Source: Eledone cirrhosa
Lineage: Eukaryota
Direction of reading: 5' to 3'
Assembly (NCBI GenBank): GCA_964016885.1
Contig: OZ024749.1
Span: 27,094,001 to 27,158,000 of the forward strand
Length of the DNA: 64,000 nt
Position 1 is the first letter of the stretch. Every line of letters begins with the position of its first letter. Under the pieces are notes generated by a model. The model was not told where the DNA came from and did not search any database. It saw only the letters and a program-made list of their open reading frames with translations. The position numbers and the translations under genes were made by a program. Shown one piece after another: positions 5,623 to 64,000 of the stretch.

Positions 5623-5678
<56 letters not shown>

Positions 5679-5837
5679 GATAAATCTACCAAGAGTTTAC
5701 GGTAGTGTCCAATCCTATATATATATATATATAGGAACCAGTAAGACCCCGACAGCTGAGCTCAAGCCGTTTCGACGGCTAATTCTGGACTTAGTCCAGA
5801 ATTAGCCGTCGAAACGGCTTGAGCTCAGCTACTCGTT

Positions 5838-5895
<58 letters not shown>

Positions 5896-6148: not shown

Positions 6149-6153
6149 ATATA

Positions 6154-6189
<36 letters not shown>

Positions 6190-7932: not shown

Positions 7933-8929
7933 CTGAGTTTTTCAAATATTAATAACTAGCAGATTTACCCGACATTGCCCGGGGTTTGAAATGCAACAAA
8001 GAATAAACAAGAAACAAATGATAATATTAGTGATTTATCTTCAAATGAATCTGATGTTTATATTTTTGTCAATAAAGTTGGTTATCTCCCTTACATCAAT
8101 TTTGCTACCGATAATTTTATCGATTTTTTATTGCTCAACGTGGGTCGATTGGACCATCTTAGCGACCTGTGCAACGTGCACAGAAAATTTGGTCAAATTC
8201 GGTTGGTAATTGTAAAAGCCTTAGGTATCCAAAGTTGTACACAGACACACACACATCCTCGCTTTTATATATATAAAGATTGTTTCTACTTTTGGCACAA
8301 GGCCAGCAATTACCCAGTGTATTACTGGTACTTTATTTTATCGACCCATAAGGATAAAAAGCAAAGTTAACCTCGGCGGGATTTGAACTCAAAATGGCAA
8401 GGGCCGTAACTCTATGCGTCAAAGCATGGCGTCTGACCCTCTACCGATACCGCCAATCCATAATATTTGATTTGTTTGCAATTATGCAAACAGCCTCTTT
8501 TTTTTTAAAGCCATGTCAGTAGAATGAGCTCCTCATTCTTGCTCTTGAGTTGGCATGTAAACAGAACTGCAGACACTAATGTTTCTTGGCGATTGCCCTT
8601 CATCAGTGCAGTTCACTGTTCACCTGCCAACTGTCAGAGCTAGTGAAAATATATGATATTTTCTAAAATATAGTGACTGATCGGCCTGATTTGCATATTA
8701 GCAGACTGGCCAATCAGTCAGATCTGCATATTAGTAGATCCACTGATCAGCCAGATTTGCATATCAGCAGATAGGCCAGTAAGTTTCAGGTATATGAGCA
8801 ATTAATGGCCGGCTTTGCATTTTCAAATAAATAACAAAAAGTTATCGCTCTACATGGCTGAACACAATAAATGTAATCTGAGTTTTTCGAATATTAATAA
8901 TAATATTCGATTTGTTTGCAATTATGCAA

Positions 8930-13400: not shown

Positions 13401-16400
13401 ACCACAGCAACATCACTACCACTGCACAACAAACACCACCACCAACAACCACAGCAACATCACTACCACGGCACAATAAACACCACCACCAACAACAACA
13501 GCAACATCACTACCACTGCACAACAAACACCACCACCAACAACAACAGCAACATCACTACCACTGCACAACAAACACCACCACCAACAACCACAGCAACA
13601 TCACTACCACTGCACAACAAACACCACCACCAACAACCACAGCAACATCACTACCACGGCACAATAAACACCACCACCAACAACCACAGCAACATCACTA
13701 CCACTGCACAACAAACACCACCACCAACGACAACAACAACATCACTACCACTGCACAATAAACACCACCACCAACAACCACAGCAACATCACTACCACTG
13801 CACAACAAACACCACCACCAACAACAACAACAACATCACTACCACTGCACAACAAACACCACCACCAACAACCACAGCAACATCACTACCACTGCACAAC
13901 AAACACCACCACCAACAACCACAGCAACATCACTACCACTGCACAATAAACACCACCACCAACAACCACAGCAACATCACTACCACTGCACAACAAACAC
14001 CACCACCAACAACAACAACAACATCACTACCACTGCACAACAAACACCACCACCAACAACAACAGCAACATCACTACCACTGCACAACAAATACCACCAC
14101 CAACAACAACAGCAACATCACTACCACTGCACAACAAACACCACCACCAACAACAACAACAACATCACTACCACTGCACAACAAACACCACCACCAACAA
14201 CAACAGCAACATCACTACCACTACACAACAAACACCACCACCAACAACCACAGCAACATCACTACCACTACACAACAAACACCACCACCAACAACCACAG
14301 CAACATCATTACCACTGCACAATAAACACCACCACCAACAGCAACAACAGCAACATCACTACCACTGCACAACAAACACCACCACCACCAACAACAACAG
14401 CAACATCACTACCACTGCACAATAAACACCACCACCAACGACAACAACAACATCACTACCACTGCACAATAAACACCACCACCAACAACAACAGCAACAT
14501 CACTACCACTGCACAATAAACACCACCACCAACAACAACAGCAACATCACTACCACTGCACAATAAACACCACCACCAACGACAACAACAACATCACTAC
14601 CACTGCACAACAAACACCACCACCAACAACCACAGCAACATCACTACCACTGCACAATAAACACCACCACCAACAACCACAGCAACATCACTACCACTGC
14701 ACAACAAACACCACCACCAACAACAACAACAACATCACTACCACTGCACAACAAACACCACCACCAACAACAACCACAGCAACATCACTACCACTGCACA
14801 ACAAACACCACCACCAACAACAACCACAGCAACATCACTACCACTGCACAACAAACACCACCACCAACAACAACAGCAACATCACTACCACTGCACAACA
14901 AACACCACCACCAACAACAACCACAGCAACATCACTACCACTGCACAATAAACACCACCACCACCAACAACAACAGCAACATCACTACCACTGCACAACA
15001 AACACCACCACCAACAACAACAACATCACTACCACTGCACAACAAACACCACCACCAACAACAACAACATCACTACCACTGCACAACAAACACCACCACC
15101 AACAACAACAACATCACTACCACTGCACAACAAACACCACCACCAACAACAACAACAACATCACTACCACTGCACAACAAACACCACCACCAACAACAAC
15201 ATCACTACCACTGCACAACAAACACCACCACCAACAACAACAACATCACTACCACTGCACAACAAACACCACCACCAACAACAACAGCAACATCACTACC
15301 ACTGCACAACAAACACCACCACCAACAACAACAGCAACATCACTACCACTGCACAACAAACACCACCACCAACAACAACAGCAACATCACTACCACTGCA
15401 CAACAAACACCACCACCAACAACAGCAACATCACTACCACTGCACAACAAACACCACCACCAACAACAACAGCAACATCACTACCACTGCACAACAAACA
15501 CCACCACCAACAACAACAGCAACATCACTACCACTGCACAATAAACACCACCACCACCAACAACAGCAACATCACTACCACGGCACAATAAACACCACCA
15601 CCAACAACATCACTACCACTGCACAACAAACACCACCACCAACGACAACAACAACATCACTACCACTGCACAACAAACACCACCACCACCAACAACAACA
15701 ACATCACTACCACTGCACAACAAACACCACCACCAACAACAACAGCAACATCACTACCACTGCACAACAAACACCACCACCACCAACAACAACAACATCA
15801 CTACCACTGCACAACAAACACCACCACCACCAACAACAACATCACTACCACTGCACAATAAACACCACCATCAACGACAACAACATCACTACCACTGCAC
15901 AATAAACACCACCACCACCAACAACAGCAACATCACTACCACGGCACAATAAACACCACCACCAACAACAACAGCAACATCACTACCACTGCACAATAAA
16001 CACCACCACCACCAACAACAGCAACATCACTACCACGGCACAATAAACACCACCACCAACAACATCACTACCACTGCACAACAAACACCACCACCAACAA
16101 CCACAGCAACATCACTACCACTGCACAACAAACACCACCACCAACAACAGCAACATCACTACCACTGCACAACAAACACCACCACCAACAACAACAGCAA
16201 CATCACTACCACTGCACAACAAACACCACCACCAACAACAACAGCAACATCACTACCACTGCACAATAAACACCACCACCACCAACAACAGCAACATCAC
16301 TACCACGGCACAATAAACACCACCACCAACAACATCACTACCACTGCACAACAAACACCACCACCAACGACAACAACAACATCACTACCACTGCACAACA

Positions 16401-19400
16401 AACACCACCACCACCAACAACAACAACATCACTACCACTGCACAACAAACACCACCACCAACAACAACAGCAACATCACTACCACTGCACAACAAACACC
16501 ACCACCACCAACAACAACAACATCACTACCACTGCACAACAAACACCACCACCACCAACAACAACAACATCACTACCACTGCACAATAAACACCACCATC
16601 AACGACAACAACATCACTACCACTGCACAATAAACACCACCACCACCAACAACAGCAACATCACTACCACGGCACAATAAACACCACCACCAACAACAAC
16701 AGCAACATCACTACCACTGCACAATAAACACCACCACCACCAACAACAGCAACATCACTACCACGGCACAATAAACACCACCACCAACAACATCACTACC
16801 ACTGCACAACAAACACCACCACCAACAACCACAGCAACATCACTACCACTGCACAACAAACACCACCACCAACAACAACAGCAACATCACTACCACTGCA
16901 CAACAAACACCACCACCAACAACCACAGCAACATCACTACCACTGCACAACAAACACCACCACCAACAACCACAGCAACATCACTACCACTGCACAACAA
17001 ACACCACCACCAACAACCAAAGCAACATCACTACCACTGCACAACAAACACCAGCACCAACGACCACAGCAACATCACTACCACTGCACAACAAACACCA
17101 CCACCAACAACCACAGCAACATCACTACCACTGCACAACAAACACCACCACCACCAACAACAACAACATCACTACCACTGCACAACAAACACCACCACCA
17201 CCAACAACAACAACATCACTACCACTGCACAATAAACACCACCACCAACAACCACAGCAACATCACTACCACTGCACAACAAACACCACCACCAACAACA
17301 ACAACAACATCACTACCACTGCACAACAAACACCACCACCAACAACAACAGCAACATCACTACCACTGCACAACAAACACCACCACCAACAACAACAGCA
17401 ACATCACTACCACTGCACAACAAACACCACCACCAACAACAACAGCAACATCACTACCACTGCACAACAAACACCACCACCAACAACAACAGCAACATCA
17501 CTACCACTGCACAACAAACACCACCACCAACAACAACAGCAACATCACTACCACTGCACAATAAACACCACCACCAACGACAACAACAACATCACTACCA
17601 CTGCACAACAAACACCACCACCAACAACAACAGCAACATCACTACCACTACACAACAAACACCACCACCAACAACAACAGCAACATCACTACCACTACAC
17701 AACAAACACCACCACCAACAACCACAGCAACATCACTACCACTGCACAATAAACACCACCACCAACAACAACAGCAACATCACTACCACTACACAACAAA
17801 CACCACCACCAACAACCACAGCAACATCACTACCACTGCACAATAAACACCACCACCAACAACAACAGCAACATCACTACCACTACACAACAAACACCAC
17901 CACCAACAACCACAGCAACATCACTACCACTGCACAATAAACACCACCACCAACAACAACAGCAACATCACTACCACTGCACAATAAACACCACCACCAA
18001 CAACAACAGCAACATCACTACCACTGCACAACAGACACCACCACCAACAACAACAGCAACATCACTACCACTACACAACAAACACCACCACCAACAACCA
18101 CAGCAACATCATTACCACTGCACAATAAACACCACCACCAACAACAACAGCAACATCACTACCACTACACAACAAACACCACCACCAACAACCACAGCAA
18201 CATCATTACCACTGCACAATAAACACCACCACCAACGACAACAACAACATCACTACCACTGCACAACAAACACCACCACCACCAACAGCAACAACAGCAA
18301 CATCACTACCACTGCACAATAAACACCACCACCAACAACCACAGCAACATCACTACCACTGCACAACAAACACCACCACCACCAACAGCAACAACAGCAA
18401 CATCACTACCACTGCACAACAAACACCACCACCAACAACAACAACAACATCACTACCACTGCACAATAAACACCACCACCAACAACAACAGCAACATCAC
18501 TACCACTGCACAACAAACACCACCACCAACAACAACAACAACATCACTACCACTGCACAACAAACACCACCACCAACAACAACAGCAACATCACTACCAC
18601 TGCACAACAAACACCACCACCACCAACAACAACAGCAACATCACTACCACTGCACAACAAACACCACCACCAACAACAACAGCAACATCACTACCACTGC
18701 ACAACAAACACCACCACCAACAACAACCACAGCAACATCACTACCACTGCACAATAAACACCACCACCACCAACAACAACAGCAACATCACTACCACTGC
18801 ACAACAAACACCACCACCAACAACAACAACATCACTACCACTGCACAACAAACACCACCACCAACAACAACATCACTACCACTGCACAACAAACACCACC
18901 ACCAACAACAACAACATCACTACCACTGCACAACAAACACCACCACCAACAACAACAACAACATCACTACCACTGCACAACAAACACCACCACCAACAAC
19001 AACATCACTACCACTGCACAACAAACACCACCACCAACAACAACAACATCACTACCACTGCACAACAAACACCACCACCAACAACAACAGCAACATCACT
19101 ACCACTGCACAACAAACACCACCACCAACAACAACAGCAACATCACTACCACTGCACAATAAACACCACCAACAACAACAACAGCAACATCACTACCACT
19201 GCACAATAAACACCACCAACAACAACAACAGCAACATCACTACCACTGCACAATAAACACCACCAACAACAACAACAGCAACATCACTACCACTGCACAA
19301 TAAACACCACCACCAACGACAACAACAACATCACTACCACTGCACAATAATCACCACCACCAACAACAACAGCAACATCACTACCACTGCACAACAAACA

Positions 19401-22400
19401 TCACCACCAACAACAACAGCAACATCACTACCACTGCACAATAAACACCACCACCAACAACAACAACAGCAACATCACTACCACTGCACAACAAACACCA
19501 CCACCACCAACAACAGCACCATCACTACCACTGCACAATAAACACCACCATCAACGACAACAACAACATCACTACCACTGCACAACAAACACCACCACCA
19601 CCAACAACAGCAACATCACTACCACTGCACAATAAACACCACCACCAACAACAACAACAGCAACATCACTACCACTGCACAACAAACACCACCACCACCA
19701 ACAACAGCACCATCACTACCACTGCACAATAAACACCACCATCAACGACAACAACAACATCACTACCACTGCACAACAAACACCACCACCAACAACAACA
19801 GCAACATCACTACCACTGCACAATAAACACCACCATCAACGACAACAACAACATCACTACCACTGCACAACAAACACCACCACCAACAACCACAACAGCA
19901 ACATCACTACCACTGTACAATAAACACCACCATCAACGACAACAACAACATCACTACCACTGCTCAATAAACACCACCACCACCAACAACAACATCACTA
20001 CCACTGCACAACAAACACCACCACCAACAACAACAACAGCAACATCACTACCACTGCACAACAAACACCACCACCACCAACAACAACAACATCACTACCA
20101 CTGCACAACAAACACCACCACCAACAACAACAACAACATCACTACCACTGCACAACAAACACCACCACCACCAACAACAACAACATCACTACCACTGCTC
20201 AATAAACACCACCACCACCAACAACATCACTACCACTGCACAACAAACACCACCACCAACAACAACAACAGCAACATCACTACCACTGCACAACAAACAC
20301 CACCACCAACAACAACAGCAACATCACTACCACTGCACAACAAACACCACCACCACCAACAACAACAACATCACTACCACTGCACAACAAACACCACCAC
20401 CACCAACAACAGCAACATCACTACCACTGCACAACAAACACCACCACCACCAACAACAGCAACATCACTACCACTGCACAACCAACACCACCACCAACAA
20501 CATCACTACCACTGCACAATAAACACCACCACCACCAACAACAGCAACATCACTACCACGGCACAATAAACACCACCACCAACGACAACAACAACATCAC
20601 TACCACTGCACAACAAACACCACCACCAACAACCACAGCAACATCACTACCACGGCACAATAAACACCACCACCAACAACATCACTACCACTGCACAACA
20701 AACACCACCACCAACGACAACAACAACATCACTACCACGGCACAATAAACACCACCACCAACAACCACAGCAACATCACTACCACTGCACAACAAACACC
20801 ACCACCAACAACAGCAACATCACTACCACTGCACAACAAACACCACCACCACCAACAACCACAGCAACATTACTACCACTGCACAACAAACACCACCACC
20901 ACCAACAACAACAACATCACTACCACTGCACAACAAACACCACCACCACCACCAACAACAGCAACATCACTACCACTGCACAATAAACACCACCACCACC
21001 AACAACAGCAACATCACTACCACTGCACAACAAACACCACCACCACCAACAACAACAATATCACTACCACTGCACAATAAACACCACCACCACCAACAAC
21101 CACAGCAACATCACTACCACTGCACAATAAACACAACCACCAACAACCACAGCAACATCACTACTACTGCACAATAAACACCACCACCACCAACAACAGC
21201 AACATCACTACCACTGCACAACAAACACCACCAACAACAACAACATCACTACCACTGCACAATAAACACCACCACCACCAACAACCACAGCAACATCACT
21301 ACCACTGCACAATAAACACCACCACCACCAACAGCAACATCACTACTACTGCACAATAAACACCACCACCACCAACAGCAACATCACTACTACTGCACAA
21401 TAAACACCACCACCACCAACAGCAACATCACTACTACTGCACAATAAACACCACCACCAACATCACTACCACTGCACAACAAACACCACCACCACCAACA
21501 ACAACAACATCACTACCACTGCACAATAAACACCACCACCACCAACAACCACAGCAACATCACTACCACTGCACAATAAACACCACCACCACCAACAGCA
21601 ACATCACTACTACTGCACAATAAACACCACCACCAACAACCACAGCAACATCACTACCACTGCACAATAAACACAACCACCAACAACCACAGCAACATCA
21701 CTACCACTGCACAATAAACACCACCACCAACAACAACAGCAACATCATTACCACTGCACAACAAACACCACCACCACCAACAACCACAGCAACATCACTA
21801 CCACTGCACAACAAACACCACCACCACCAACAACAGCAACATCACTACCACTGCACAATAAACACCACCACCAACAACCACAGCAACATCACTACCACTG
21901 CACAACAAACACCACCACCACCAACAACAACATCACTACCACTCCACAATAAACACCACCACCAACAACAACAGCAACATCACTACCACTGCACAATAAA
22001 CACCACCACCAACAACAACAGCAACATCACTACCACTGCACAACAAACACCACCACCAACAACAACAGCAACATCACTACCACTGCACAACAAACACCAC
22101 CACCAACAACAACAGCAACATCAGTACCACTGCACAACAAACACCACCACGACCAACAACAACAACATCACTACCACTGCACAATAAACACCACCACCAA
22201 CAACAACAGCAACATCACTACCACTGCACAATAAACACCACCACCAACAACAACATCACTACCACTGCACAACAAACACCACGACCAACAACAACATCAC
22301 TACCACTGCACAACAAACACCACCACCAACAACAACATCACTACCACTGCACAACAAACACCACCACCAACAACAGCAACATCACTACCACTGCACAACA

Positions 22401-25400
22401 AACACCACCACCAACAACAATATCACTACCACTGCACAATAAACACCACCACCAACAACAACATCACTACCACTGCACAATAAACACCACCACCAACAAC
22501 AACAACAACATCACTACCACTGCACAACAAACACCACCACCAACAACAACAGCAACATCACTACCACTGCACAACAAACACCACCACCAACAACAACATC
22601 ACTACCACTGCACAACAAACACCACCACCAACAACAACAACAACATCACTACCACTGCACAACAGACACCACCACCAACAACCACAGCAACATCACTACC
22701 ACTGCACAACAAACACCACCACCAACAACAACAACATCACTACCACTGCACAACAAACACCACCACCAACAACAACATCACTACCACTGCACAATAAACA
22801 CCACCAACAACAACAACAACAGCAACATCACTACCACTGCACAATAAACACCACCACCAACAACAACAGCAACATCACTACCACTGCACAACAAAAACCA
22901 CCACCAACAACAACAACATCACTACCACTGCACAACAAACACCACCACCAACAACAACATCACTACCACTGCACAATAAACACCACCAACAACAACAACA
23001 GCAACATCACTACCACTGCACAACAAACACCACCACCAACAACAACATCACTACCACTGCACAACAAACACCACCACCAACAACAACAACATCACTACCA
23101 CTGCACAACAAACACCACCAACAACAACAACATCACTACCACTGCACAATAAACACCACCAACAACAACAACAGCAACATCACTACCACTGCACAATAAA
23201 CACCACCACCAACAACAACAGCAACATCACTACCACTGCACAATAAACACCACCACCACCAACAACAACAACATCACTACCACTGCACAATAAACACCAC
23301 CACCAACAACAACAGCAACATCACTACCACTGCACAATAAACACCACCACCACCAACAAGAACAACATCACTACCACTGCACAATAAACACCACCACCAA
23401 CAACAACAGCAACATCACTACCACTGCACAATAAACACCACCACCACCAACAACAACAACATCACTACCACTGCACAACAAACACCACCACCAACAACAA
23501 CAACATCACTACCACTGCACAACAAACACCACCACCAACAACAACAACATCACTACCACTGCACAACAAACACCACCACCAACAACAACAACATCACTAC
23601 CACTGCACAATAAACACCAACAACAACAACAACAGCAACTTCACTACCACTGCACAATAAACACCACCACCAACAACAACAGCAACATCACTACCACTGC
23701 ACAATAAACACCACCACCACCAACAACAACAACATCACTACCACTGCACAATAAACACCACCAACAACAACATCACTACCACTGCACAACAAACACCACC
23801 ACCAACAACAACAACATCACTACCACTGCACAACAAACACCACCACCAACAACAACAACATCACTACCACTGCACAATAAACACCACCAACAACAACAAC
23901 AGCAACATCACTACCACTGCACAACAAACACCACCACCAACAACAACAAAATCACTACCACTGCACAACAAACACCACCACCAACAACAACAACATCACT
24001 ACCACTGCACAACAAACACCACCTCCAACAACAACAGCAACATCACTACCACTGCACAATAAACACCACCACCAACAACAACAGCAACATCACTACCACT
24101 GCACAATAAACACCACCACCACCAACAACAACAACATCACTACCACTGCACAATAAACACCACCAACAACAGCAGCAACATCACTACCACTGCACAATAA
24201 ACACCACCAACAACAACAACAGCAACATCACTACCACTGCACAACAAACACCACCACCAACAACAACAAAATCACTACCACTGCACAACAAACACCACCA
24301 CCAACAACAACAACATCACTACCACTGCACAATAAACACCACCACCAACAACAACAGCAACATCACTACCACTGCACAACAAACACCACCACCAACGACA
24401 ACAGCAACATCACTACCACTGCACAATAAACACCACCACCACCAACAACAACAACATCACTACCACTGCACAACAAACACCACCACCAACGACAACAGCA
24501 ACATCACTACCACTGCACAACAAACACCACCACCAACAACAACAACAACAACATCACTACCACTGCACAACAAACACCACCACCACCAACAACAGCACCA
24601 TCACTACCACTGCACAATAAACACCACCACCAACAACCACAGCAACATCACTACCACTGCACAATAAACACCACCACCAACAACAACAGCAACATCACTA
24701 CCACTGCACAATAAACACCACCATCAACGACAACATCACTACCACTGCACAACAAACACCACCAACAACAACAACAACATCACTACCACTGCACAATAAA
24801 CACCACCACCAACAACAACAGCAACATCACTACCACTGCACAACAGACACCACCACCAACAACAACAACAACATCACTACCACTGCACAACAAACACCAC
24901 CACCAACAACAACAACAGCAACATCACTACCACTGCACAATAAACACCACCACCAACAACAACAGCAACATCACTACCACTGCACAATAAACACCACCAC
25001 CAACAACAACAACAACAACATCACTACCACTGCACAATAAACACCACCACCAACAACCACAGCAACATCACTACCACTGCACAACAAACACCACCACCAA
25101 CAACAACAACAACATCACTACCACTGCACAACAAACACCACCACCAACAACAACAGCAACATCATTACCACTGCACAATAAACACCACCACCAACAACAA
25201 CAACATCACTACCACTGCACAATAAACACCACCACCAACAACCACAGCAACATCACTACCACTGCACAACAAACACCACCACCACCAACAACAGCAACAT
25301 CACTACCACTGCACAACAAACACCACCACCAACAACCACAGCAACATCACTACCACTGCACAACAAACACCACCACCACCAACAACAACAGCAACATCAC

Positions 25401-28400
25401 TACCACTGCACAACAAACACCACCACCAACAACAACAGCAACATCACTACCACTGCACAATAAACACCACCACCAACAACAACAGCAACATCACTACCAC
25501 TGCACAACAAACACCACCACCACCAACAACAACAGCAACATCACTACCACTGCACAACAAACACCACCACCAACAACAACAACAGCAACATCACTACCAC
25601 TGCACAACAAACACCACCACCACCAACAACAACAGCAACATCACTACCACTGCACAATAAACACCACCACCAACAACAACAGCAACATCACTACCACTGC
25701 ACAATAAACACCACCACCAACAACAACAGCAACATCACTACCACTGCACAACAAACACCACCACCACCAACAACAACAGCAACATCACTACCACTGCACA
25801 ATAAACACCACCACCAACAACAACAGCAACATCACTACCACTGCACAATAAACACCACCACCAACAACAACAGCAACATCACTACCACTGCACAATAAAC
25901 ACCACCACCAACAACAACAGCAACATCACTACCACTGCACAATAAACACCACCACCAACAACAACAGCAACATCACTACCACTGCACAACAAACACCACC
26001 ACCACCAACAACAACAGCAACATCACTACCACTGCACAATAAACACCACCACCAACAACAACAGCAACATCACTACCACTGCACAATAAACACCACCACC
26101 AACAACAACAGCAACATCACTACCACTGCACAATAAACACCACCACCAACAACAACAGCAACATCACTACCACTGCACAATAAACACCACCACCAACAAC
26201 AACAGCAACATCACTACCACTGCACAACAAACACCACCACCACCAACAACAACAGCAACATCACTACCACTGCACAACAAACACCACCACCACCAACAAC
26301 AACAGCAACATCACTACCACTGCACAATAAACACCACCACCAACAACAACAGCAACATCACTACCACTGCACAATAAACACCACCACCAACAACAACAGC
26401 AACATCACTACCACTGCACAACAAACACCACCACCACCAACAACAACAGCAACATCACTACCACTGCACAACAAACACCACCACCAACAACAACAACAGC
26501 AACATCACTACCACTGCACAACAAACACCACCACCACCAACAACAACAGCAACATCACTACCACTGCACAATAAACACCACCACCAACAACAACAGCAAC
26601 ATCACTACCACTGCACAATAAACACCACCACCAACAACAACAGCAACATCACTACCACTGCACAACAAACACCACCACCACCAACAACAACAGCAACATC
26701 ACTACCACTGCACAATAAACACCACCACCAACAACAACAGCAACATCACTACCACTGCACAACAAACACCACCACCACCAACAACAACAGCAACATCACT
26801 ACCACTGCACAACAAACACCACCACCACCAACAACAACAGCAACATCACTACCACTGCACAATAAACACCACCACCAACAACAACAGCAACATCACTACC
26901 ACTGCACAATAAACACCACCACCAACAACAACAGCAACATCACTACCACTGCACAATAAACACCACCACCAACAACAACAGCAACATCACTACCACTGCA
27001 CAACAAACACCACCACCAACAACAACAGCAACATCACTACCACTGCACAATAAACACCACCACCACCAACAACAACAGCAACATCACTACCACTGCACAA
27101 TAAACACCACCACCAACAACAGCAACAACAACGACATCATCACTACCACTACTACTAACAACAACAACACCAATGCTGCCACCTCCACTAACAACAATAG
27201 CAATAGTAACAACAACTATAGCAACAACTACAACACCATCACCACCACAAACAGTAACAACAACAACAATACTTACTTTGGTTCATTGATATTAAAAGCT
27301 CTTCCTTCATTATTGAAAAGTCTTCTTGGTTTCTTGAGATTTTCATTTTCAGAGCTATAACAACATCAACATATGTATCATATATATTACACACACACAT
27401 ATATATATCACATCACATATACAGACACACACATATCACACACACACATAAGAGCTATAACAACATATGTATCATATATATTACACACACACACACATAT
27501 ATATATCACATCACATATACAGACACACACACATCACACACACACATAAGAGCTACAACAACATCAACATATGTATCATATATATTACACACACACACAC
27601 ATATATATATCACATCACATATACAGACACACACATATCACACACACACATAAGAGCTATAACAACAACATCAACATATGTATCATATATATTACACACA
27701 CACACACATATATATATCACATCACATATACAGACACACACATATCACACACACACATAAGAGCTATAACAACATATGTATCATATATATTACACACACA
27801 CACACATATATATATCACATCACATATACAGACACACACATATCACACACACACATAAGAGCTATAACAACAACATCAACATATGTATCATATATATTAC
27901 ACACACACACATATATATATATCACATCACATATACAGACACACACATATCACACACACACATAAGAGCTATAACAACATCAACATTTGTATCATATATA
28001 TTACACACACACACACATATATATATATATCACATCACATATACAGACACACACATAAGAGCTATAACATCATCATCAACATATGTATCATATATATTAC
28101 ACACACACACACATATATATATATATCACATCACATAAACAGACACACACATATCACACACACACATAAGAGCTATAACAACATCATCAACATATGTATC
28201 ATATATATTACACACACACACACACATATATATCACATCACATATACAGACACACACATATCACACACACACATAAGAGCTATAACAACATATGTATCAT
28301 ATATATTACACACACACACACACATATATATATCACATCACATATACAGACACACACATATCACACACACACATAAGAGCTATAACAACAACATCAACAT

Positions 28401-30118
28401 ATGTATCATATATATTACACACACACACACACACATATATATATCACATCACATATACAGACACACACATATCACACACACACATAAGAGCTATAACAAC
28501 ATATGTATCATATATATTACACACACACACACATATATATATCACATCACATATACAGACACACACATATCACACACACACATAAGAGCTATAACAACAA
28601 CATCAACATATGTATCATATATATTACACACACACACACATATATATATCACATCACATATACAGACACACACATATCACACACACACATAAGAGCTATA
28701 ACAACAACATCAACATATGTATCATATATATTACACACACACATATATATATCACATCACATATACAGACACACACATATCACACACACACATAAGAGCT
28801 ATAACAACATATGTATCATATATATTACACACACACACACATATATATATCACATCACATATACAGACACACACATATCACACACACACATAAGAGCTAT
28901 AACAACAACATCAACATATGTATCATATATATTACACACACACACACATATATATATCACATCACATATACAGACACACACATATCACACACACACATAA
29001 GAGCTATAACAACAACATCAACATATGTATCATATATATTACACACACACACACATATATATATATCACATCACATATACAGACACACACACATCACACA
29101 CACACATAAGAGCTATAACATCATCATCATATGTATCATATATATTACACACACACACACACATATATATATCACATCACATATACAGACACACACATAT
29201 CACACACACACATAAGAGCTATAACAACAACATCAACATATGTATCATATATATTACACACACACACACATATATATATATCACATCACATATACAGACA
29301 CACACATATCACAAACACATAAGAGCTATAACATCATCAACATATGTATCATATATATTACACACACATATATATCACATCACATATACAGACACACACA
29401 TATCACACACACACATAAGAGCTATAACAACATCAACATTTGTATCATATATATTACACACACACACACATATATATATATATCACATCACATATACAGA
29501 CACACACATAAGATCTATAACATCATCATCAACATATGTATCATATATATTACACACACACACACACATATATATATATCACATCACATAAACAGACACA
29601 CACATATCACACACACACATAAGAGCTATAACAACATCATCAACATATGTATCATATATATTACACACACACACATATATATCACATCACATATACAGAC
29701 ACACACATATCACACACACACATAAGAGCTATAACAACATCATCAACAACAACACACACTCATCTGTGTCTCACATACACACATACAACATATACACATC
29801 TCTATCACACACACACATACACATTTATGTCACACACACACAGACCAGTATCACAAACACAAACCCACACACACACAGACCAGTATCACACATACACACT
29901 CACTTGTATGAAACACTATGTAGGTATATACAGTATATATCTATCTAAGGCGGGTAAAATTCCCGAGATCCATGGACGAGTTCTCTCCAGCAGTCTCTGT
30001 CCCTCATTATCGCTGCCATGTCCTGCGTCTCCAACAGACCAGTGTCTGTCCTTAGGGCATCAACATACGTTAACCTTGGTCTTCCTCTTCTAGTGTGTCC
30101 ATGTAGGGCCTCCCAACG

Positions 30119-37313: not shown

Positions 37314-39983
37314 TTTATGGAGGCACATGGCTTAGTGGTTAGAGCATTGGCCTTGCAATCAAAAGGTTGTGAGTTCAATTCTCAGACCGGATGATGTGTT
37401 GTTTCCTTGAGCAAGACACTTTATTTCACATTGCTCCAGTATACTCAGTATACCTGCTTGCAAGGGTGGGACGGGAACTGATTCTGGCTTGATTTCTACA
37501 GCTGGATGCCCTTCCTAACACCAACCTCATTTACAGTGAGTGCTGGGTGCTTTTTTGCCGTGGCACCTCCACGACCACTTTGCAGTGGAATGATATGGGG
37601 CCCCAGTCCCTATCATCTCATTTCTACAGCTGAGCAAACTGGAGCAATGTGAAATAAAGTGTCTTGCTCAAGGAAACTACACATCACCCGGTCTGAGAAT
37701 TGAACTCACAACCTTTTGATTGCAAGGCCAATGCTCTAACCACTAAGCCATGTGCCTCCATATACACATATATATATATATATATATGTAGATAAATCTA
37801 CCAAGAGTTTACGGTAGTGTCCAATCCGTATGAAGAACTCAATGTAATCCGGATATCATGGAAAGAAGAGATGCAATGAAAAATCACTTTCGGTGAAAGA
37901 TAAACGGAATACAGAGTCAAGATAAAATATTAAAAAAATAATGAATAAAACAATGAAACAGTTCCTTATATTAAACAAAAAAAGTTCATTATTTAACGAT
38001 CGTTTCTAGGATATATATGTGTTAGAATTGGCATGCATATTCAACAGATCTATGTACAAAATTATACAAAATTATACAAACTATCAAAATTAAATATACA
38101 TACCAACACATATATATGCCGTCTTCAGAAATAATGAAATATATTTATTGATAATAACAACAATTCAAAATTACAGGTCTGTTTGGGAACAGAGTTCAAA
38201 TTGACCAATGAAAACACAAAAAGTTTATACAGTTAGGTGTATGTATATATGTAAGTAACTTCGTTCACAGATATGCATAAAAATATATATATGTTCACAT
38301 GCATGCGCATGCCGAAAAGATGTATGTAAATACAAAAATTCAGGGCTAATGTCTCTGTATGTTTATAATCTACAGATAAAATACGTATACGCATATAAAC
38401 ACATAAATATAAAAATAAATATATACACATTCATATACTCACACATATACATACATTCACACACACACGCGCGTATACGCATAAACATACACACAATCAC
38501 GAACATACATACACACACACACCCCCACACACATATATGTGTATATACTATTATCATAAGTATATGGACATTAATGCGCGCACATAAACACTGCCACACA
38601 TATTTAGATCCAGATACAGAAAGTAGGTAGGGGGGGAAGAGGTCAGTATTTACTGGTGTCAGCAAACTGTCCGCGCATTGCCTGGAGACTTAACTGAGAA
38701 TAGACTTCCTGATGACGCAATGAATTCTCGACAGTTGGATTACGTAACTGTCTTTATCCCATTGCAGAAACTAATTAGTTGGAGTGAAAATTTAAGTAAG
38801 AAAAAAATTTTTTTTAAATTTTTTTAAAAAAATATTTTCTTATTTTACGTCCTTTATATTATTGTTCTGCATTCTCCTGCATTGAACCACCTAGGTACTA
38901 TGACATAACCTGTGTATTTGCTGGCATGGGCGTGCATCTGTGCGCTTATGTTAGTTGATATATTAAATTATCTATATTTATCTCCAAATCACTGATTTGT
39001 CGAGCAAACTTGTCAAAACCACTTCTAAAAAAATTTTTTTTTTTTTGGGGTGTTAGTAGGCGTCAGTCATCTTACCATCCCATTCCTTCTAACTAGCCTC
39101 TGTGTCACGTGATTGATTCTTTAGAATCGGCCATTTGACTTGAAGCAGTGAGAATTTCGGTACATAGAATCCAGTCCTCGCAAGCTGTTCGATCTACCGA
39201 ATTATTATTATTTTTATATGAGCCGCCAGTGTCCGCGCATTGCCTGGAGACTTAACTGAGAATAGACTTCCTGATGACGCAATGAATTCTCGACAGTTGG
39301 ATTACGTAACTGTCTTTATCCCATTGCAGAAACTAATTAGTTGGAGTGAAAATTTAAGTAAGAAAAAAATTTTTTTTAAATTTTTTTTAAAAAAATATTT
39401 TCTTATTTTACGTCCTTTATATTATTGTTCTGCATTCTCCTGCATTGAACCACCTAGGTACTATGACATAACCTGTGTATTTGCTGGCATGGGCGTGCAT
39501 CTGTGCGCTTATGTTAGTTGATATATTAAATTATCTATATTTATCTCCAAATCACTGATTTGTCGAGCAAACTTGTCAAAACCACTTCTAAAAAAATTTT
39601 TTTTTTTTTTTTTTTTGGGGTGTTAGTAGGCGTCAGTCATCTTACCATCCCATTCCTTCTAACTAGCCTCTGTGTCACGTGATTGATTCTTTAGAATCGG
39701 CCATTTGACTTGAAGCAGTGAGAATTTCGGTACATAGAATCCAGTCCTCGCAAGCTGTTCGATCTACCGAATTATTATTATTTTTATATGAGCCGCCAGT
39801 GTCCGCGCATTGCCTGGAGACTTAACTGAGAATAGACTTCCTGATGACGCAATGAATTCTCGACAGTTGGATTACGTAACTGTCTTTATCCCATTGCAGA
39901 AACTAATTAGTTGGAGTGAAAATTTAAGTAAGAAAAAAATTTTTTTAAAATTTTTTTAAAAAAATATTTTCTTATTTTACGTC

Positions 39984-40027
<44 letters not shown>

Positions 40028-40095
40028 ACACATACACATACACACATACAAAGATATATATATATATATATATATACACACGCACATATAATATA

Positions 40096-40158
<63 letters not shown>

Positions 40159-40454
40159 TATATATACACACATACATACATATACATACTCATACATAGA
40201 CATACATATGTATACACACACACATACACACATGCATATACGCATATATACACATACATACACATCCATGTATGCGTATACACATACAAACACAACCACA
40301 CGCTCACACAACTCAGACATACATAAATAAAGGGATATACATACACATATATACATATATAAATAGAGATACATATACACATATAAATATATACACACAT
40401 ACACACACACACACATATACATACATACACACATACATATATATAAACACACAT

Positions 40455-40519
<65 letters not shown>

Positions 40520-40619
40520 TATATAAAAATAAAGAAATAAAAGAAATAAATAAATAAATTAATTAATACACACAGTCAGACAAATATGTACACACATACA
40601 TGTACACATACATATACAT

Positions 40620-40676
<57 letters not shown>

Positions 40677-43313
40677 CATATACATACATATATATATACA
40701 CATACACACATCAACTACAAATATATATATATATATATATATATATGGAAAGTTATATTTAAATTGTTGGGTTACAACTAGTAAATATTTATAACTGATA
40801 TAAAAGCACTCAACAAGTATTTGGAGTATATTTACGATACTAAATAAATGGAAACTACATCTACAAAACCATATCTATCTCATCATACATACCTCAGGGA
40901 CATCACACCAACAATATGCTGTGTGATGTCCCTGAGGTATGTATGATGAGATAGATATGGTTTTGTAGATGTAGTTTCCATTTATTTAGTATCGTAAATA
41001 TACTCCAAATACTTGTTGAGTGCTTTTATATCAGTTATAAATATTTACTAGTTGTAACCCAACAATTTAAATATAATTAAGTTAAAAATGTACATCCACA
41101 TATGTATACTGAAATACTAGTATGCATATGAATACACACACGTATACATATGTAGATGTACCGAGTTTTTCACTGGTCACTTTACTGTGAGTGTCCAGCT
41201 ATTCTGTATGTAAACACACAGACAAACCGGTTTTTAGAGTCATACTGGTTTTTGAGGAAACACCTTTCCTCTATTCTCCAGAAAGCCAGACAAGGAATAT
41301 TGAACTAGTTTCGATGTTGTTACATCTCATCAGCAATATTTACCTATCTTCCGGCCTCTCTAGAGAATCGTAAAAGCACATATCGTTATATGCTTTTTCT
41401 ATGAAAATTAGTAGTGGGCAGACTAATTTGCATAGAGCGTGAGTACGTACCGGTTCAACGGAGACGATAAAAACAAATAACGAAACAAAATTAAATTTCG
41501 TTTCGTTTGTAACTCACTTTTGTATGACTGACGCTTAAACAATTAAGTTAAAAATGTACATCCACATATGTATACTGAAATACTAGTATGCATATGAATA
41601 CACACACGTATACATATGTAGATGTACCGAGTTTTTCACTGGTCACTTTACTGTGAGTGTCCAGCTATTCTGTATGTAAACACACAGACAAACCGGTTTT
41701 TAGAGTCATACTGGTTTTTGAGGAAACACCTTTCCTCTATTCTCCAGAAAGCCAGACAAGGAATATTGAACTAGTTTCGATGTTGTTACATCTCATCAGC
41801 AATATTTACCTATCTTCCGGCCTCTCTAGAGAATCGTAAAAGCACATATCGTTATATGCTTTTTCTATGAAAATTAGTAGTGGGCAGACTAATTTGCATA
41901 GAGCGTGAGTACGTACCGGTTCAACGGAGACGATAAAAACAAATAACGAAACAAAATTAAATTTCGTTTCGTTTGTAACTCACTTTTGTATGACTGACGC
42001 TTAAACAATTAAGTTAAAAATGTACATCCACATATGTATACTGAAATACTAGTATGCATATGAATACACACACGTATACATATCTAGATTTACCGAGTTT
42101 TTCACAGAATAGCTGGACACTCACAGTAAAGTGACCAGTGAAAAACTCGGTACATCTACATATGTATACGTGTGTGTATTCATATGCATACTAGTATTTC
42201 AGTATACATATGTGGATGTACATTTTTAACTTAATTGTTTAAGCGTCAGTCATACAAAAGTGAGTTACAAACGAAACGAAATTTAATTTCGTTTCGTTAT
42301 TTGTTTTTATCGTCTCCGTTGAACCGGTACGTACTCACGCTCTATGCAAATTAGTCTGCCCACTACTAATTTTCATAGAAAAAGCATATAACGATATGTG
42401 CTTTTACAATTCTCTAGAGAGGCCGGAAGATAGGTAAATATTGCTGATGAGATGTAACAACATCGAAACTAGTTCAATATTCCTTGTCTGGCTTTCTGGA
42501 GAATAGAGGAAAGGTGTTTCCTCAAAAACCAGTATGACTCTAAAAACCGGTTTGTCTGTGTGTTTACATACAGAATAGCTGGACACTCACAGTAAAGTGA
42601 CCAGTGAAAAACTCGGTACATCTACATATGTATACGTGTGTGTATTCATATGCATACTAGTATTTCAGTATACATATGTGGATGTACATTTTTAACTTAA
42701 TTGTTTAAGCGTCAGTCATACAAAAGTGAGTTACAAACGAAACGAAATTTAATTTCATTTCGTTATTTGTTTTTATCGTCTCCGTTGAACCGGTACGTAC
42801 TCACGCTCTATGCAAATTAGTCTGCCCACTACTAATTTTCATAGAAAAAGCATATAACGATATGTGCTTTTACGATTCTCTAGAGAGGCCGGAAGATAGG
42901 TAAATATTGCTGATGAGATGTAACAACATCGAAACTAGTTCAATATTCCTTGTCTGGCTTTCTGGAGAATAGAGGAAAGGTGTTTCCTCAAAAACCAGTA
43001 TGACTCTAAAAACCGGTTTGTCTGTGTGTTTACATACAGAATAGCTGGACACTCACAGTAAAGTGACCAGTGAAAAACTCGGTACATCTACATATGTATA
43101 TGTGTGTGTATTCATATGCATACTAGTATTTCAGTATACATATGTGGATGTACATTTTTAACTTAATTGTTTAAGCGTCAGTCATACAAAAGTGAGTTAC
43201 AAACGAAACGAAATTTAATTTCGTTTCGTTATTTGTTTTTAATTTAAATATAACTTTCCATATATATATTTGTAGTTGATGTGTGTATGTGTATATATAT
43301 ATGTATGTATATG

Positions 43314-43378
<65 letters not shown>

Positions 43379-43491
43379 ATGTATATGTATGTGTACATGT
43401 ATGTGTGTACATATTTGTCTGACTGTGTGTATTAATTAATTTATTTATTTATTTCTTTTATTTCTTTATTTTTATATATATATGTATATAT

Positions 43492-43542
<51 letters not shown>

Positions 43543-43830
43543 ATGTGTGTGTATATATATGTATGTGTGTATGTATGTGTATGTATATGTGTGTGTGTGT
43601 GTGTGTGTATATATTTATATGTGTATATGTATCTCTATTTATATATGTATATCCCTTTATTTATGTATGTCTGAGTTGTGTGAGCGTGTGGTTGTGTTTG
43701 TATGTGTATACGCATACATGGATGTGTATGTATGTGTATATATGAGTATATGTATGTGTGTATGTGTGTGTGTATATATATGTATGTCTATGTATGAGTA
43801 TGTATATGTATGTATGTGTGTATATATATA

Positions 43831-43893
<63 letters not shown>

Positions 43894-43962
43894 TATATTA
43901 TATGTGCGTGTGTATATATATATATATCTTTGTATGTGTGTATGTGTATGTGTGTGTATGTA

Positions 43963-44018
<56 letters not shown>

Positions 44019-44078
44019 GGTATGTATGTGTATGTGTGTATATACATGAGTGTGTTTATATATGTGTATAGATATATG

Positions 44079-44139
<61 letters not shown>

Positions 44140-44346
44140 ATGTGTGTTGTGAATGTATATATGTATGTGTCTCTATATGTATGCGTGTGTGTATGTGTAT
44201 GTGTATTTATATGGTGTGTGTATGTATATGTATGTGTATGTATGTGTTTATGTATATGTGTATGTATATGTATGTATATATATGTATATATATATATATG
44301 TATATGTATGTATATCGATGTATATTTTATATTTTACTTGTTTATA

Positions 44347-44419
<73 letters not shown>

Positions 44420-45226
44420 TTTCTTAATATTTTTCTTTTTTCTTTTTCTTTTTATTTCTAAATTTATAGATACATTTATAAATAGGCAGTTTGCTGACAC
44501 CAGTAAATACTGACCTCTTCCCCCCCCCCTACCTACTTTCTGTATCTGGATCTAAATATGTGTGGCAGTGTTTATGTGCGCGCATTAATGTCCATATGCT
44601 TATGATAATAGTATATACACATATGTGTGTGGGGGTGTGTGTGTGTATGTATGTTCGTGATTGTGTGTATGTTTATGCGTATACGCGCGTGTGTGTGTGA
44701 ATGTATGTATATGTGTGAGTATATGAATGTGTATATATTTATTTTTATATTTATGTGTTTATATGCGTATACGTATTTTATCTGTAGATTATAAACATAC
44801 AGAGACATTAGCCCTGAATTTTTGTATTTACATACATCTTTTCGGCATGCGCATGCATGTGAACATATATATATTTTTATGCATATCTGTGAACGAAGTT
44901 ACTTACATATATACATACACCTAACTGTATAAACTTTTTGTGTTTTCATTGGTCAATTTGAACTCTGTTCCCAAACAGACCTGTAATTTTGAATTGTTGT
45001 TATTATCAATAAATATATTTCATTATTTCTGAAGACGGCATATATATGTGTTGGTATGTATATTTAATTTTGATAGTTTGTATAATTTTGTATAATTTTG
45101 TACATAGATCTGTTGAATATGCATGCCAATTCTAACACATATATATCCTAGAAACGATCGTTAAATAATGAACTTTTTTTGTTTAATATAAGGAACTGTT
45201 TCATTGTTTTATTCATTATTTTTTTA

Positions 45227-45282
<56 letters not shown>

Positions 45283-49731: not shown

Positions 49732-50651
49732 TATATATATATGCAAAAGTTTTATTTAAAATTGTTGGGTTACAACAAGTAAATATTTTATAACTGATAT
49801 AAAGCACTCGACAAGTTTTGGAGTAGATATACGATATTAAACAAATGGAAACTATATTTATAAAACCATATTTATTTCATTATACATATTTCGGGGATAC
49901 CATATTAAAAATATTCATGAATATTGATATTTACATTATATTACCCAATTCATATGAGTTGATAATTCAAATTGACAGGACATAACGTAAAGATGTAAAT
50001 CTATCATAACTCTCTCTAGATATAGCTCTTTCTTCTCCTCCCTCTTTATATATGATGAAGTCTATGTATCCGTTGTTTTAACTTTGCCTCTCCTATTTCT
50101 CTCTTGATTTTCACCTCCCCCTATATAATTATTATTATTTGGTCTACCTCTTTTTCCCCCCACCTCTATCTTTCTCTCTCTCTGTTTTCTCTTCATCTTT
50201 TATTTCTCTCCGTCTCCTCCCCAACTGTCCTTAACACTATAACTAAATAATTACAGTACTCCCTCCCTCCTAAATCTCTCAATTTGTATGATGAATTATT
50301 ATTATTCATCTGTTGCCTCAGCTGCCTCTCTTTTTTCACCTCCTCACTATTTCTCTCTCCCCTATCTCTCTCTATTTCTCTCTGTTTTTCTTTACATACA
50401 TTTCTTCTTTTTCTCCGTCTTTCTTTTTTTTAACTGTGTTTAACACTAAATATTTATAAACATCTCACTACCAAACCAGCTTCTTACATAACGGTTGCTC
50501 AATTATTTATGGTACGTCAAAATTATTTATAAAACTGTTTATATATTGTATTTTATCTGAAGAAGGCATGCCATATTTTTAATATGGTATCCCCGAAATA
50601 TGTATAATGAAATAAATATGGTTTTATAAATATAGTTTCCATTTGTTTAAT

Positions 50652-63009: not shown

Positions 63010-63479
63010 TATGTATATATAAATATATGTATATATAAATACATATATATATATTGGTAAACGGAATAGAAAATGCTGACAAATTGTTCACAGTTGAAAA
63101 ATAGTTTAATTAGGAATAAAAGAGTATTAGTAATTGTATGGGTTAGTATTCAGTTGTGGTTTTAAGTTTTTAAGTTTTTACCGGTTGCGCATTTCTAAAT
63201 GCTTTTCAAAAATAATTTTGAGATAGAGTGTCCGTGTTGTTTGCTCTGATCTAATTAGTTTTGGGAATTCTACCTGTTTTTATGTTAAAAAAGTGGCTCC
63301 AGCGCTACTTTGGTGTTGCAAAAATTCTTGTGGTCAAAACAATTTTGATTGGTCGGTAGAGGTCATGTGAATGTAAAAAATTGATTTTGCGCCAAGACTG
63401 AGGAATGACTCTTTCACAACAAATATGTGTGTGTGTGTATGTGTGTGTAGTAGTAGTAAAGTGTTCGATGTTGTGATAA

Positions 63480-64000
63480 TGGTTCTAGTGACGTTCGATG
63501 TAGTCAACCTATACTCCAACATCCCCCACAACCTAGGAATAGAAGCTATCCAATTCTTGCTGGATAATTACCACAATGAACTCCCACAACGCATCAAAAA
63601 AGAATTTGTGATAGAGGAACTCAAATTTATCTTGGAGAACAATTACTTCGTTTTCAATAACAAACCTTACAGGCAGAAATCTGGGACCGCTATGGGAACG
63701 AAAACAGCCCCCACTTATGCCAACCTAGTCATGGGATACCTGGAAATCACCCTCTTCACTAAAGTCCTAAACAAATTTGGAAACACTTACACATTGAAAG
63801 GAACTGGAAGCGATATCTAGATGACTGCTTCATCCTTTGGCACGAAAACATCGAAAAACTTAAAGAATTTCACACCCTTATAAATGGGCTCAACACGAAT
63901 ATTAACTTCACGATGGAATACAGCCAGCAACAACTCCCCTTCCTCGACATCCTCATTAAGATCCATAACAAAAAAATAGAAACAGACATATACTACAAGC
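63480..64000 (+). mobile_element. Penelope-like element reverse transcriptase, 5'-truncated and frameshifted, runs off the window
   Basis: LVTFDVVNLYSNIP...NYFVFNNKPYRQKSGTAMGTKTAPTYANLVMG, then after a frameshift near 63790 WKRYLDDCFILW...INFTME...LPFLDI...TDIYYK. Confidence 0.9.

What the first reader, a model, noticed from the sequence alone, without database searches (positions are those of the whole stretch)
45019..45172. Atypical hammerhead architecture: C.A at the base of helix II, long helix II and GUU site, shared by two unrelated families
Seen: families A and B both read CUGANGA-C...A-GAAAC, where the canonical closing pair is purine-pyrimidine (usually G-C). Both have enlarged helix II, about 115 nt in A (with AUAUAUAUGUGUU/AACACAUAUAUAU and GGUAUGUAUAUU/AAUAUGCAUGCC stems) and about 50 nt in B. 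All three families use GUU rather than the commoner GUC/GUA. Inference: recurrence in unrelated sequence contexts suggests a real structural variant that length-limited ribozyme searches would miss, not random decay.
Basis: partly seen in the sequence, partly recalled or inferred. Interest (0 to 1): 0.7.

Follow-up and report, generated by a model that had tools for sequence, protein, structure and literature searches.

The report
Loose-jointed hammerhead of Penelope retrotransposons
This is the predicted self-cutting RNA motif at the end of a Penelope-type jumping gene with thousands of copies; its odd C·A joint and very long second stem are fixed family traits that partly have precedent in related elements, and the joint's adenosine is possibly rewritten by RNA editing, though cutting itself is untested.

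Summary
Family A (45019-45172) is the type I hammerhead in the terminal repeat of an intact Hydra-clade-like Penelope element (813-aa ORF). A11.1 is present in 7,419 of 7,442 genomic copies and C10.1 in 9,814 of 10,042. Family B, a non-coding tandem unit with the same insertion signature, keeps C·A in 17 of 17 variants while neighbouring pairs covary. The combination is less exceptional than proposed. A published supplement lists C·A in a Chara element, and U·U mismatches and GUU sites in Hydra-clade hammerheads. This genome holds over 100,000 such motifs, in which pair 10.1·11.1 takes eight states and helix II spans 11-116 nt. The constant feature is a C·C/C·U mismatch at pair 4 (102,286 of 119,908), which the scan noted before (e1-8671138). 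New here: the 115-nt helix; a 5'-end hotspot 7 nt upstream of the core; and, in one public run not on record as RNA, A-to-G changes at the C·A adenosine (about 18% versus 0.02%), beside a hyper-edited sister stub at 40753-41076. Cleavage was not tested. Verdict: new variant of a known kind.

The parts
45019..45172 (+). Family A type I hammerhead; predicted cleavage between 45162 and 45163 (GUU)
45029..45035 (+). Core CUGAAGA (positions 3-9)
45036..45150 (+). Helix II, 115 nt: C45036·A45150, G·U, G-C, C45039·C45147 mismatch, then 13-bp and about 15-bp stems and a distal hairpin with a 10-nt tandem repeat
45151..45162 (+). GAAA plus palindromic helix III (AACGAUCGUU from A14 to U17), predicted dimer interface
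45022..45022 (+). A at -7 from the core: commonest 5' end of short genomic copies of family A elsewhere (possible transcript start, inferred)
43241..45235 (+). 5'-truncated copy of the family A element: microsatellite-like 3' UTR, terminal repeat, short 3' end (+70 after the site) abutting (TA)n
37760..38669 (-). Inverted family A copy (hammerhead 37985-38138) with the long tail (37760-37921) abutting (TA)n; left end of the 7.5-kb composite insertion
38668..39991 (+). Family B: 2.3 tandem non-coding units (562 and 570 bp), hammerhead cores at 38709, 39271, 39841, C·A, 51-nt helix II, GUU
39987..40765 (-). Inverted copy of the 3' UTR-like stretch 43241-44000
40753..41076 (.). Fold-back stub of a sister Penelope hammerhead family with A>G hypermutation on the hammerhead strand (GAAA reads GAGG at 40934-40937), same changes in both arms
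41075..43241 (.). Family C: two inverted arrays of 466-bp units, canonical G-C hammerheads (cores 41333, 41799 -; 42444, 42910 +), GUU

Best explanation
Family A is the type I hammerhead motif in the terminal repeat of a high-copy Penelope-like retrotransposon with Hydra-clade protein motifs, and it likely cuts slowly and only as a dimer or with protein help. Shown: it lies in the direct repeats that flank an intact 813-aa ORF, about 350 nt upstream of the ATG, and again at the 3' end; copies insert in (TA)n with two alternative 3' ends and inverted 5'-truncated partners; helix III is a short palindrome. Shown by comparison: the first pair of helix II is a tolerant position in these elements (C·A, U-A, A-U, A·C, U·U, G·U, G-C), pairs 2-3 covary, a C·C/C·U mismatch at pair 4 is nearly constant in A's class, and the distal helix is freely extensible. 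Inferred: two motifs pair through helix III to form a double hammerhead; C·A, GUU (U17 can pair with A14) and the absence of a recognisable loop-loop contact keep the rate low, so that uncut RNA survives as the template for reverse transcription; the pair-4 mismatch would be the contact to helix I or to the element's protein. B is a non-autonomous tandem (retrozyme-like) passenger that is likely moved by the same kind of machinery and carries the same closure.
For: ORF between direct hammerhead repeats in L061 (cores 7754, 1304 -) and L074 (1258, 8339 +; unit 7,081 bp); DKT, RWR, CxCx5C, CxxC, CxH motifs read in the ORF match the Hydra description in PMC8557442; Atlas neighbours at 0.96-0.99 carry HTH_animal, GIY-YIG or RVT_1 on 18-99% of members. 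3' ends: 15 long, 15 short, 1 other of 31 copies. A11.1 in 7,419 of 7,442; C10.1 in 9,814 of 10,042. B: 94.4% of cells paired, covariation score 0.315 vs 0.128 shuffled (0 of 500) and at most 0.088 slid; pair 10.3 takes all four Watson-Crick types; C and A invariant in 17 of 17. Census: 33 clusters from 172 distinct motifs, 0 in reversed controls. C10.4·Y11.4 in 102,286 of 119,908 short-helix matches (controls 1,434 and 5,939). Sister elements at about 48% protein identity (L075, L068) carry 31-36-nt helices II with the same pair-4 mismatch. Cofold gives the double-hammerhead form with gains of -14.8 (A), -10.4 (B), -3.4 (C) kcal/mol. Low, dimer-dependent or protein-assisted cleavage and use of uncut RNA as template are reported for other Penelope hammerheads (PMC4209133; PMC11167929).
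Against: No cleavage was measured and no RNA end was seen. Pfam found nothing significant in the ORF (one E 0.093 hit) and PDB sequence search nothing relevant; no tree was built. The 7.1-kb unit is far longer than the under-3-kb Hydra elements described. PMC4209133 calls G10.1-C11.1 highly conserved in Penelope hammerheads, which is not so here. Family A is young, so its own long helix shows few two-sided changes (1 pair in the 23-sequence alignment; more in diverged members). B lacks the pair-4 mismatch and its autonomous partner was not found. The census loci were fetched by targeted patterns, so cluster proportions are not genome frequencies.
Confidence: 0.75

Rival explanations
1. The C·A is an RNA-editing switch: ADAR converts A11.1 (UAG context, opposite C, at the end of a long AU-rich duplex) to inosine, giving a C-I pair that would change cleavage; the long helix II would be the editing platform.
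For: Run X4 shows T>C (A>G on the hammerhead strand) at A11.1 (449 of 2,504 summed contig depth, 30 contigs), A15.1 (560 of 2,665), a helix II A (193 of 988) and a bulge A (370 of 1,074); X1 has 0.002-0.016% at the same four places and X5 has 0. G at 11.1 occurs in 7 of 7,442 genomic copies; the other three sites are A in 73 of 73 stored copies (for A15.1 most copies were fetched with an anchor that fixes it). A sister stub inside the same insertion carries 9 of 9 private changes as A>G, including A14 and A15.1. Cephalopod edited adenosines favour A-C mismatches (PMC8891338 passages). All three C·A families seen have helices II of 50 nt or more.
Against: X4 is not on record as RNA and is another sample than X1; summed contig depth is not a quantitative measure; 8 rows were not shown. 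Editing is spread over several adenosines, including A15.1, which would likely damage the core. Inverted copies make long perfect duplexes that could be edited regardless of the hammerhead fold. Many long-helix families lack C·A, a U-A subfamily of A exists, and C-G revertants are not enriched in the genome.
Confidence: 0.12
2. The fold is kept as a binding or template signal for the retrotransposon protein and no longer cleaves to any useful extent.
For: In the anole element, catalytic mutants still insert, and no RNA-seq reads were found to begin or end at the site (PMC11167929). Short copies here keep the whole uncut motif. The monomer MFE of B and C traps CUGAU in an alternative pairing.
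Against: CUGANGA, GAAA, U16.1 and a non-G at 17 are kept across 33 clusters with unrelated helices (partly imposed by my search pattern); the palindrome of helix III changes sequence between families but stays palindromic.
Confidence: 0.2
3. The C is the known unpaired nucleotide between 9 and 10.1 of Penelope hammerheads, the next G-C is the true G10.1-C11.1, and the novelty is only an extra A before G12.
For: PMC4209133 reports a conserved extra nucleotide at that place. In B the next pair is G-C in 15 of 17.
Against: For A, relatives with G-C, U-A or A-U at pair 1 keep the C·C mismatch at pair 4, which fixes the register with C·A as pair 1; pair 2 of A is G·U, A-U or G-C. For B the two readings cannot be told apart from sequence.
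Confidence: 0.2
4. C·A is local decay of a canonical pair.
For: None found; scattered C>T changes at this CpG exist among the 228 non-C copies.
Against: 7,419 of 7,442, 9,814 of 10,042 and 17 of 17.
Confidence: 0.01

Closest known systems
Hammerheads of Hydra-clade and PLE-X Penelope-like elements (PMC8557442: passages, and part 2 of 59 of the supplement with File S2)
   Same: Type I motif in the terminal repeat, (TA)n target, tail and inverted truncated copy. By my count in File S2, 15 of 26 Hydra rows have a mismatch at the base of helix II (14 U·U, 1 U·C) and 10 of 26 have GUU; PLE-X1_cBra has exactly C..A; PLE-X1_sMoe and sTam have long helices II flagged as deviating; an octopus member, Hydra-1_Obim, is listed.
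   Different: Listed Hydra helices II are 3-7 bp hairpins and, by eye, none shows the pair-4 C·C; elements are under about 3 kb. A has 115 nt, an even 6-nt palindrome and a 7.1-kb unit.
Metazoan PLE minimal hammerheads (PMC4209133, parts 1-2 of 4; figures and supplement not seen)
   Same: Larger helix II, palindromic short helix III, dimer model, low activity in vitro.
   Different: They describe 7-8 bp helices, a single extra 5' nucleotide and a conserved G10.1-C11.1.
Non-LTR retrozymes, incl. axolotl HHR_Amex2 (PMC7229834, parts 2-3 of 6; bioRxiv 10.64898/2026.07.22.740005, parts 1-2 of 5)
   Same: Tandem non-coding units with type I hammerheads (B, C); Amex2 has U·U at the base of helix II and cleaves better as a dimer; 126,247 motifs in the axolotl genome.
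   Different: B units are 562-570 bp with a 51-nt helix II and C·A; circular RNA not shown here; a similar motif count lies in a 3.0-Gb genome.
Poseidon element of the green anole, PAc (PMC11167929, parts 1-2 of 4)
   Same: Two reverse-transcription start sites downstream of the hammerhead explain the optional tail; protein-assisted cleavage; uncut RNA is the template.
   Different: In PAc the ORF starts inside the hammerhead; here it starts about 350 nt after the site and the tail is about 135-160 nt.
Natural core and stem variants (PMC3088659 passages; sCYDV-RPV(+) in Table 1 of PMC1636495; viral 5'-UTR hammerheads PMC13725137 passages and abstract)
   Same: U10.1·U11.1 closure, a segmented long helix II (5+4+4 bp), and 5'-UTR hammerheads without loop-loop contacts are known.
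   Different: None of the passages read shows a helix II near 100 nt or C·A tested for activity.

Membership tests
Type I hammerhead ribozyme | Core CUGANGA, GAAA, U16.1-H17 | tested here: met
Type I hammerhead ribozyme | Three helices around the core, ends joined in helix I | tested here: met
   folds, covariation in B, diverged A members
Type I hammerhead ribozyme | G10.1-C11.1 (quasi-conserved) | tested here: not met
   C·A in A and B; B can alternatively be read as G-C flanked by two extra bases
Type I hammerhead ribozyme | Loop 1-loop 2 tertiary contact | tested here: inconclusive
   no short loop 2 at the usual distance; pair-4 C·Y mismatch is a candidate substitute
Type I hammerhead ribozyme | Site-specific self-cleavage | not testable with these tools
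   only contigs were available
Penelope-like element hammerhead (dimer type) | Located in terminal repeats flanking an RT-endonuclease ORF | tested here: met
   L061, L074 for family A; no such ORF found for B
Penelope-like element hammerhead (dimer type) | Short palindromic helix III, more stable as dimer | tested here: met
   (computed only)
Hydra clade of Penelope-like elements | DKT, RWK, CxCx5C, CxxC and CxH motifs, C-terminal GIY-YIG, no CCHH | tested here: met
   read by eye in the 813-aa ORF (RWR instead of RWK) against PMC8557442
Hydra clade of Penelope-like elements | (TA)n target, tail, inverted 5'-truncated copy | tested here: met
Hydra clade of Penelope-like elements | Generally shorter than 3 kb (descriptive) | tested here: not met
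   unit 7,081 bp with a long microsatellite-like 3' UTR
Hydra clade of Penelope-like elements | Placement in the RT phylogeny | not tested
   no reference proteins were fetched and no tree was built; hence 'Hydra-clade-like'
Non-LTR retrozyme (families B, C) | Non-coding tandem units each with a type I hammerhead | tested here: met
   no ORF of 140 aa or more listed for the window between 36000 and 45900
Non-LTR retrozyme (families B, C) | Expressed as small circular RNA | not testable with these tools
   no raw RNA reads served

The most novel reading that the evidence does not exclude
An editing-gated ribozyme: the 115-nt helix II recruits ADAR, which turns the C·A joint into C-I and so sets whether the retrotransposon RNA cuts off its own 5' end (which starts inside helix I), coupling RNA editing to retrotransposition in an animal rich in editing.
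Probability: 0.12. Interest if true: 0.85.

Novelty: new variant of a known kind. Interest (0 to 1): 0.5.

Why it matters
The genome is a natural mutagenesis of the hammerhead with more than 100,000 copies: the pair regarded as the most conserved of helix II varies freely, helix II grows to 115 nt or more, and a different position (pair 4) is held. That shows which descriptors miss real motifs and gives a ready panel for testing what Penelope hammerheads are for, an open question in the papers read. If the A-to-G signal at the C·A adenosine is editing with an effect on rate, it would be a natural ribozyme controlled by ADAR; one search listed only an engineered case (PMC3923133, abstract seen).

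Tried and rejected
DNA search of the own genome with 44940-45230 returned nothing, not even the window's copy: uninformative, replaced by patterns. No RNA holder listed. Pfam and PDB sequence searches did not identify the ORF. Cap-G at the 5' hotspot: G precedes the junction in 8 of 30 fetched loci and 22 of the first 100 listed (counted by eye), A in 15 of 30; not established. A splice acceptor there was rejected because the genomic base is C. The hotspot was not seen in the other families inspected by eye. No similarity between B or C units and A's terminal repeat beyond chance; B's autonomous partner not found. Enrichment of pair-restoring revertants: of 23 non-A copies, 7 G, 13 T, 3 C, many at truncation junctions. 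No measured rate for C10.1·A11.1 was found (searches; PMC9901934 and PMC11300833 passages). No paper on octopod hammerhead abundance or the pair-4 mismatch came up in searches (listings only). Lunse et al. 2017 (PMC5785218) was not held and may already describe such variants; figures and supplements of PMC4209133 and PMC7229834 were not seen.

Full report
1. Observation. The motif is present as described: helix I 45019-45028/45163-45172, CUGAAGA, a 115-nt helix II from C45036 to A45150, GAAA, CGAUCG and GUU. Helix II folds at -41.1 kcal/mol; none of 300 shuffles reached that. B has C..A with 51 nt and GUU; C has G-C with 14 nt and GUU. Of the 150 Rfam matches shown out of 262, only C hit a hammerhead model, below its gathering score.

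2. Context. The window is G000:C9:27094001-27158000 of a 3.0-Gb animal genome; calling it octopod-like rests on my recall of its SINEs and on the scan's earlier notes, not on a call of mine. 37760-45235 is one composite insertion in (TA)n: tail and inverted A copy, 2.3 units of B, an inverted 3' UTR-like stretch, a fold-back stub, two inverted arrays of C, then 3' UTR and the A copy of the finding. This is the arrangement described for Penelope-like elements (PMC8557442 passages).

3. A is a Penelope terminal-repeat hammerhead. An exact 19-mer of A has 7,442 matches, control 0. Of 20 stretches fetched around copies, three hold a full-length 813-aa ORF match (L061, L074, L063), and in L061 and L074 it lies between direct hammerhead repeats. 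In L074 the site is about 350 nt before the ATG and the unit is 7,081 bp. The protein has DKT, RWR, CxCx5C, CxxC and CxH, matching the Hydra description; Atlas neighbours carry GIY-YIG, RVT_1 and HTH_animal families, while Pfam and PDB gave nothing useful and no tree was built. Of 31 copies, 15 end about 60-71 nt and 15 about 194-204 nt after the site, like the two start sites of reverse transcription in the anole element (PMC11167929). B has 9,628 anchor matches, tandem and inverted copies, two 3' ends at (TA)n and no ORF: a retrozyme-like passenger.

4. C·A is fixed, but the position is tolerant. A11.1 stands in 7,419 of 7,442 copies, C10.1 in 9,814 of 10,042. In B, 22 of 30 sampled copies had an intact core and all 22 were C..A; over 17 distinct variants the helices covary (score 0.315 vs 0.128, 0 of 500 shuffles, a control that ignores relatedness; slid controls at most 0.088) while C and A never change. 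A generic pattern with a 6-nt helix III gives 119,908 matches for helix II of 12-40 nt (control 5,939), 20,456 for 41-70 (1,137), 20,478 for 71-100 (1,653) and 15,767 for 101-130 (1,897). The bins can count one core twice and the longer bins include repeats I did not verify, so I claim only 'over 100,000'. A structure-aware finder on 214 stored sequences (800 kb, pattern-enriched, so not a random sample) gave 172 distinct motifs in 33 clusters and 0 in reversed controls. Pair 1 was U·U 7, A-U 6, C·A 4, G·U 4, A·A 4, G-C 4, U-A 3, G·G 1; GUU was the commonest site (9 of 33). The four C·A clusters are A, B (two) and a third family with 90 nt and GUU. Within A's lineage a subfamily has U-A and GUA, and diverged members keep C·A with the stem turned to G-C.

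5. The constant feature. Pair 4 is C·C or C·U in 102,286 of 119,908 short-helix matches (control 1,434) and in A (C45039·C45147). Sister elements at about 48% protein identity have 31-36-nt helices with this mismatch, so A's long helix is likely a distal expansion; that direction is inferred, not rooted. This fixes the register in A, so C·A is pair 10.1·11.1; in B, which lacks the mismatch, it may instead be read as G-C flanked by two extra bases, the 5' one known from PMC4209133. I saw this before consulting the scan's notes; e1-8671138 reports it on other DNA of this genome.

6. Precedent. File S2 of PMC8557442 lists C..A in PLE-X1_cBra, and by my count a base mismatch in 15 of 26 and GUU in 10 of 26 Hydra rows, plus two long helices II flagged as deviant. 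U·U closure is also in axolotl Amex2 and PMC3088659. I saw no helix II near 115 nt and no activity data for C·A in the passages read; Lunse et al. 2017 was not available, and unseen figures and supplements may hold more.

7. Mechanism. Cofolding gives the double-hammerhead form for A, B and C. In all three, GUU extends the palindrome by an A14-U17 pair that would have to open, and the monomers of B and C fold CUGAU into an alternative helix (computed). With the mismatch closure this suggests a slow, dimer- or protein-dependent ribozyme, as reported for other Penelope motifs. Fifteen of 31 copies begin 4-8 nt upstream of the core, 9 of them at -7 (six inverted pairs are not independent); 3,105 genomic copies have a foreign base at -8, and 30 of 30 fetched were junctions. 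The simplest reading is a transcript start inside helix I, copied from uncut RNA; a cap-derived G was not established and other families did not show the hotspot.

8. Editing. In run X4 four adenosines of the hammerhead strand, including A11.1 and A15.1, read as G at 18-34% of summed contig depth, against at most 0.016% in X1 and 0 in X5. X4 is not on record as RNA, is another sample, and depth here is not quantitative, so this is a hint. Independently, the stub at 40753-41076 differs from its closest stored relative by 11 A>G of 13 changes and from the majority of 15 relatives by 9 of 9 A>G, all on the hammerhead strand, destroying GAAA. The scan noted similar fossils elsewhere (e1-8806526, e1-8674264; not checked by me). 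Editing of these RNAs is therefore likely; that it gates cleavage through C·A is speculative, since it is spread over several sites and inverted copies form editable duplexes anyway.

9. Verdict. Real, family-fixed, missed by Rfam in the rows shown, but one point in a wide radiation of Penelope hammerheads with published precedent for C·A, mismatched closure and GUU. New variant of a known kind; interest 0.5; editing-gated reading 0.12.

Noticed in passing
window 40753-41076: Fold-back stub of a sister Penelope hammerhead with A>G hypermutation on one strand, identical in both arms; GAAA became GAGG.
   Followed up: yes
window 50549-50612 (+): Another hammerhead copy of the short-helix class: A·C at pair 1, C·C at pair 4, AUA site, followed by a tail ending at (TA)n.
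   Followed up: partly
window about 8546-8614 (-): Single hammerhead-like motif with 8-bp helix I, A·A base, 14-nt helix II, near-palindromic helix III and GUC.
   Followed up: no
L181, L191 (G000:C1:6671917, 11679234): Third family with C·A, a 90-nt helix II and GUU.
   Followed up: partly
L163 -468, L169 +1501, L170, L174, L193: Further families with 78-95-nt helices II, one predicted to branch, closed by U·U, A·A, U-A or G·G.
   Followed up: partly
window 11877-27130 and 27351-29890: 15-kb array of a 47-bp CA-rich unit (328 copies, extreme strand skew) followed by a 107-bp array.
   Followed up: no
window 5395-6185 and 1756-2029: Palindromic repeat built from a non-hammerhead inverted element; 5614-6047 holds two 217-bp units that include the end of family A's tail.
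   Followed up: no
L218, L222-L226: Five of 30 fetched 5'-junction copies of A are fused directly to the 3' end of one other repeat.
   Followed up: no
window 63377-63817 (+); L013, L024, L025, L034, L078: Fragments of other Penelope-like ORFs; several are nested in or next to family A insertions.
   Followed up: no
runs X5 and X6 on window 37780-38785: Contigs labelled as two other organisms hold parts of A and B (one 214-nt piece with 2 differences at depth 4); not interpreted.
   Followed up: no
L017 +329-type neighbours, 'TTGAAAA' core at a 13-nt helix II family: A family with the U3-A8 core swap and a CCGG palindrome occurs in flanks of fetched loci.
   Followed up: no
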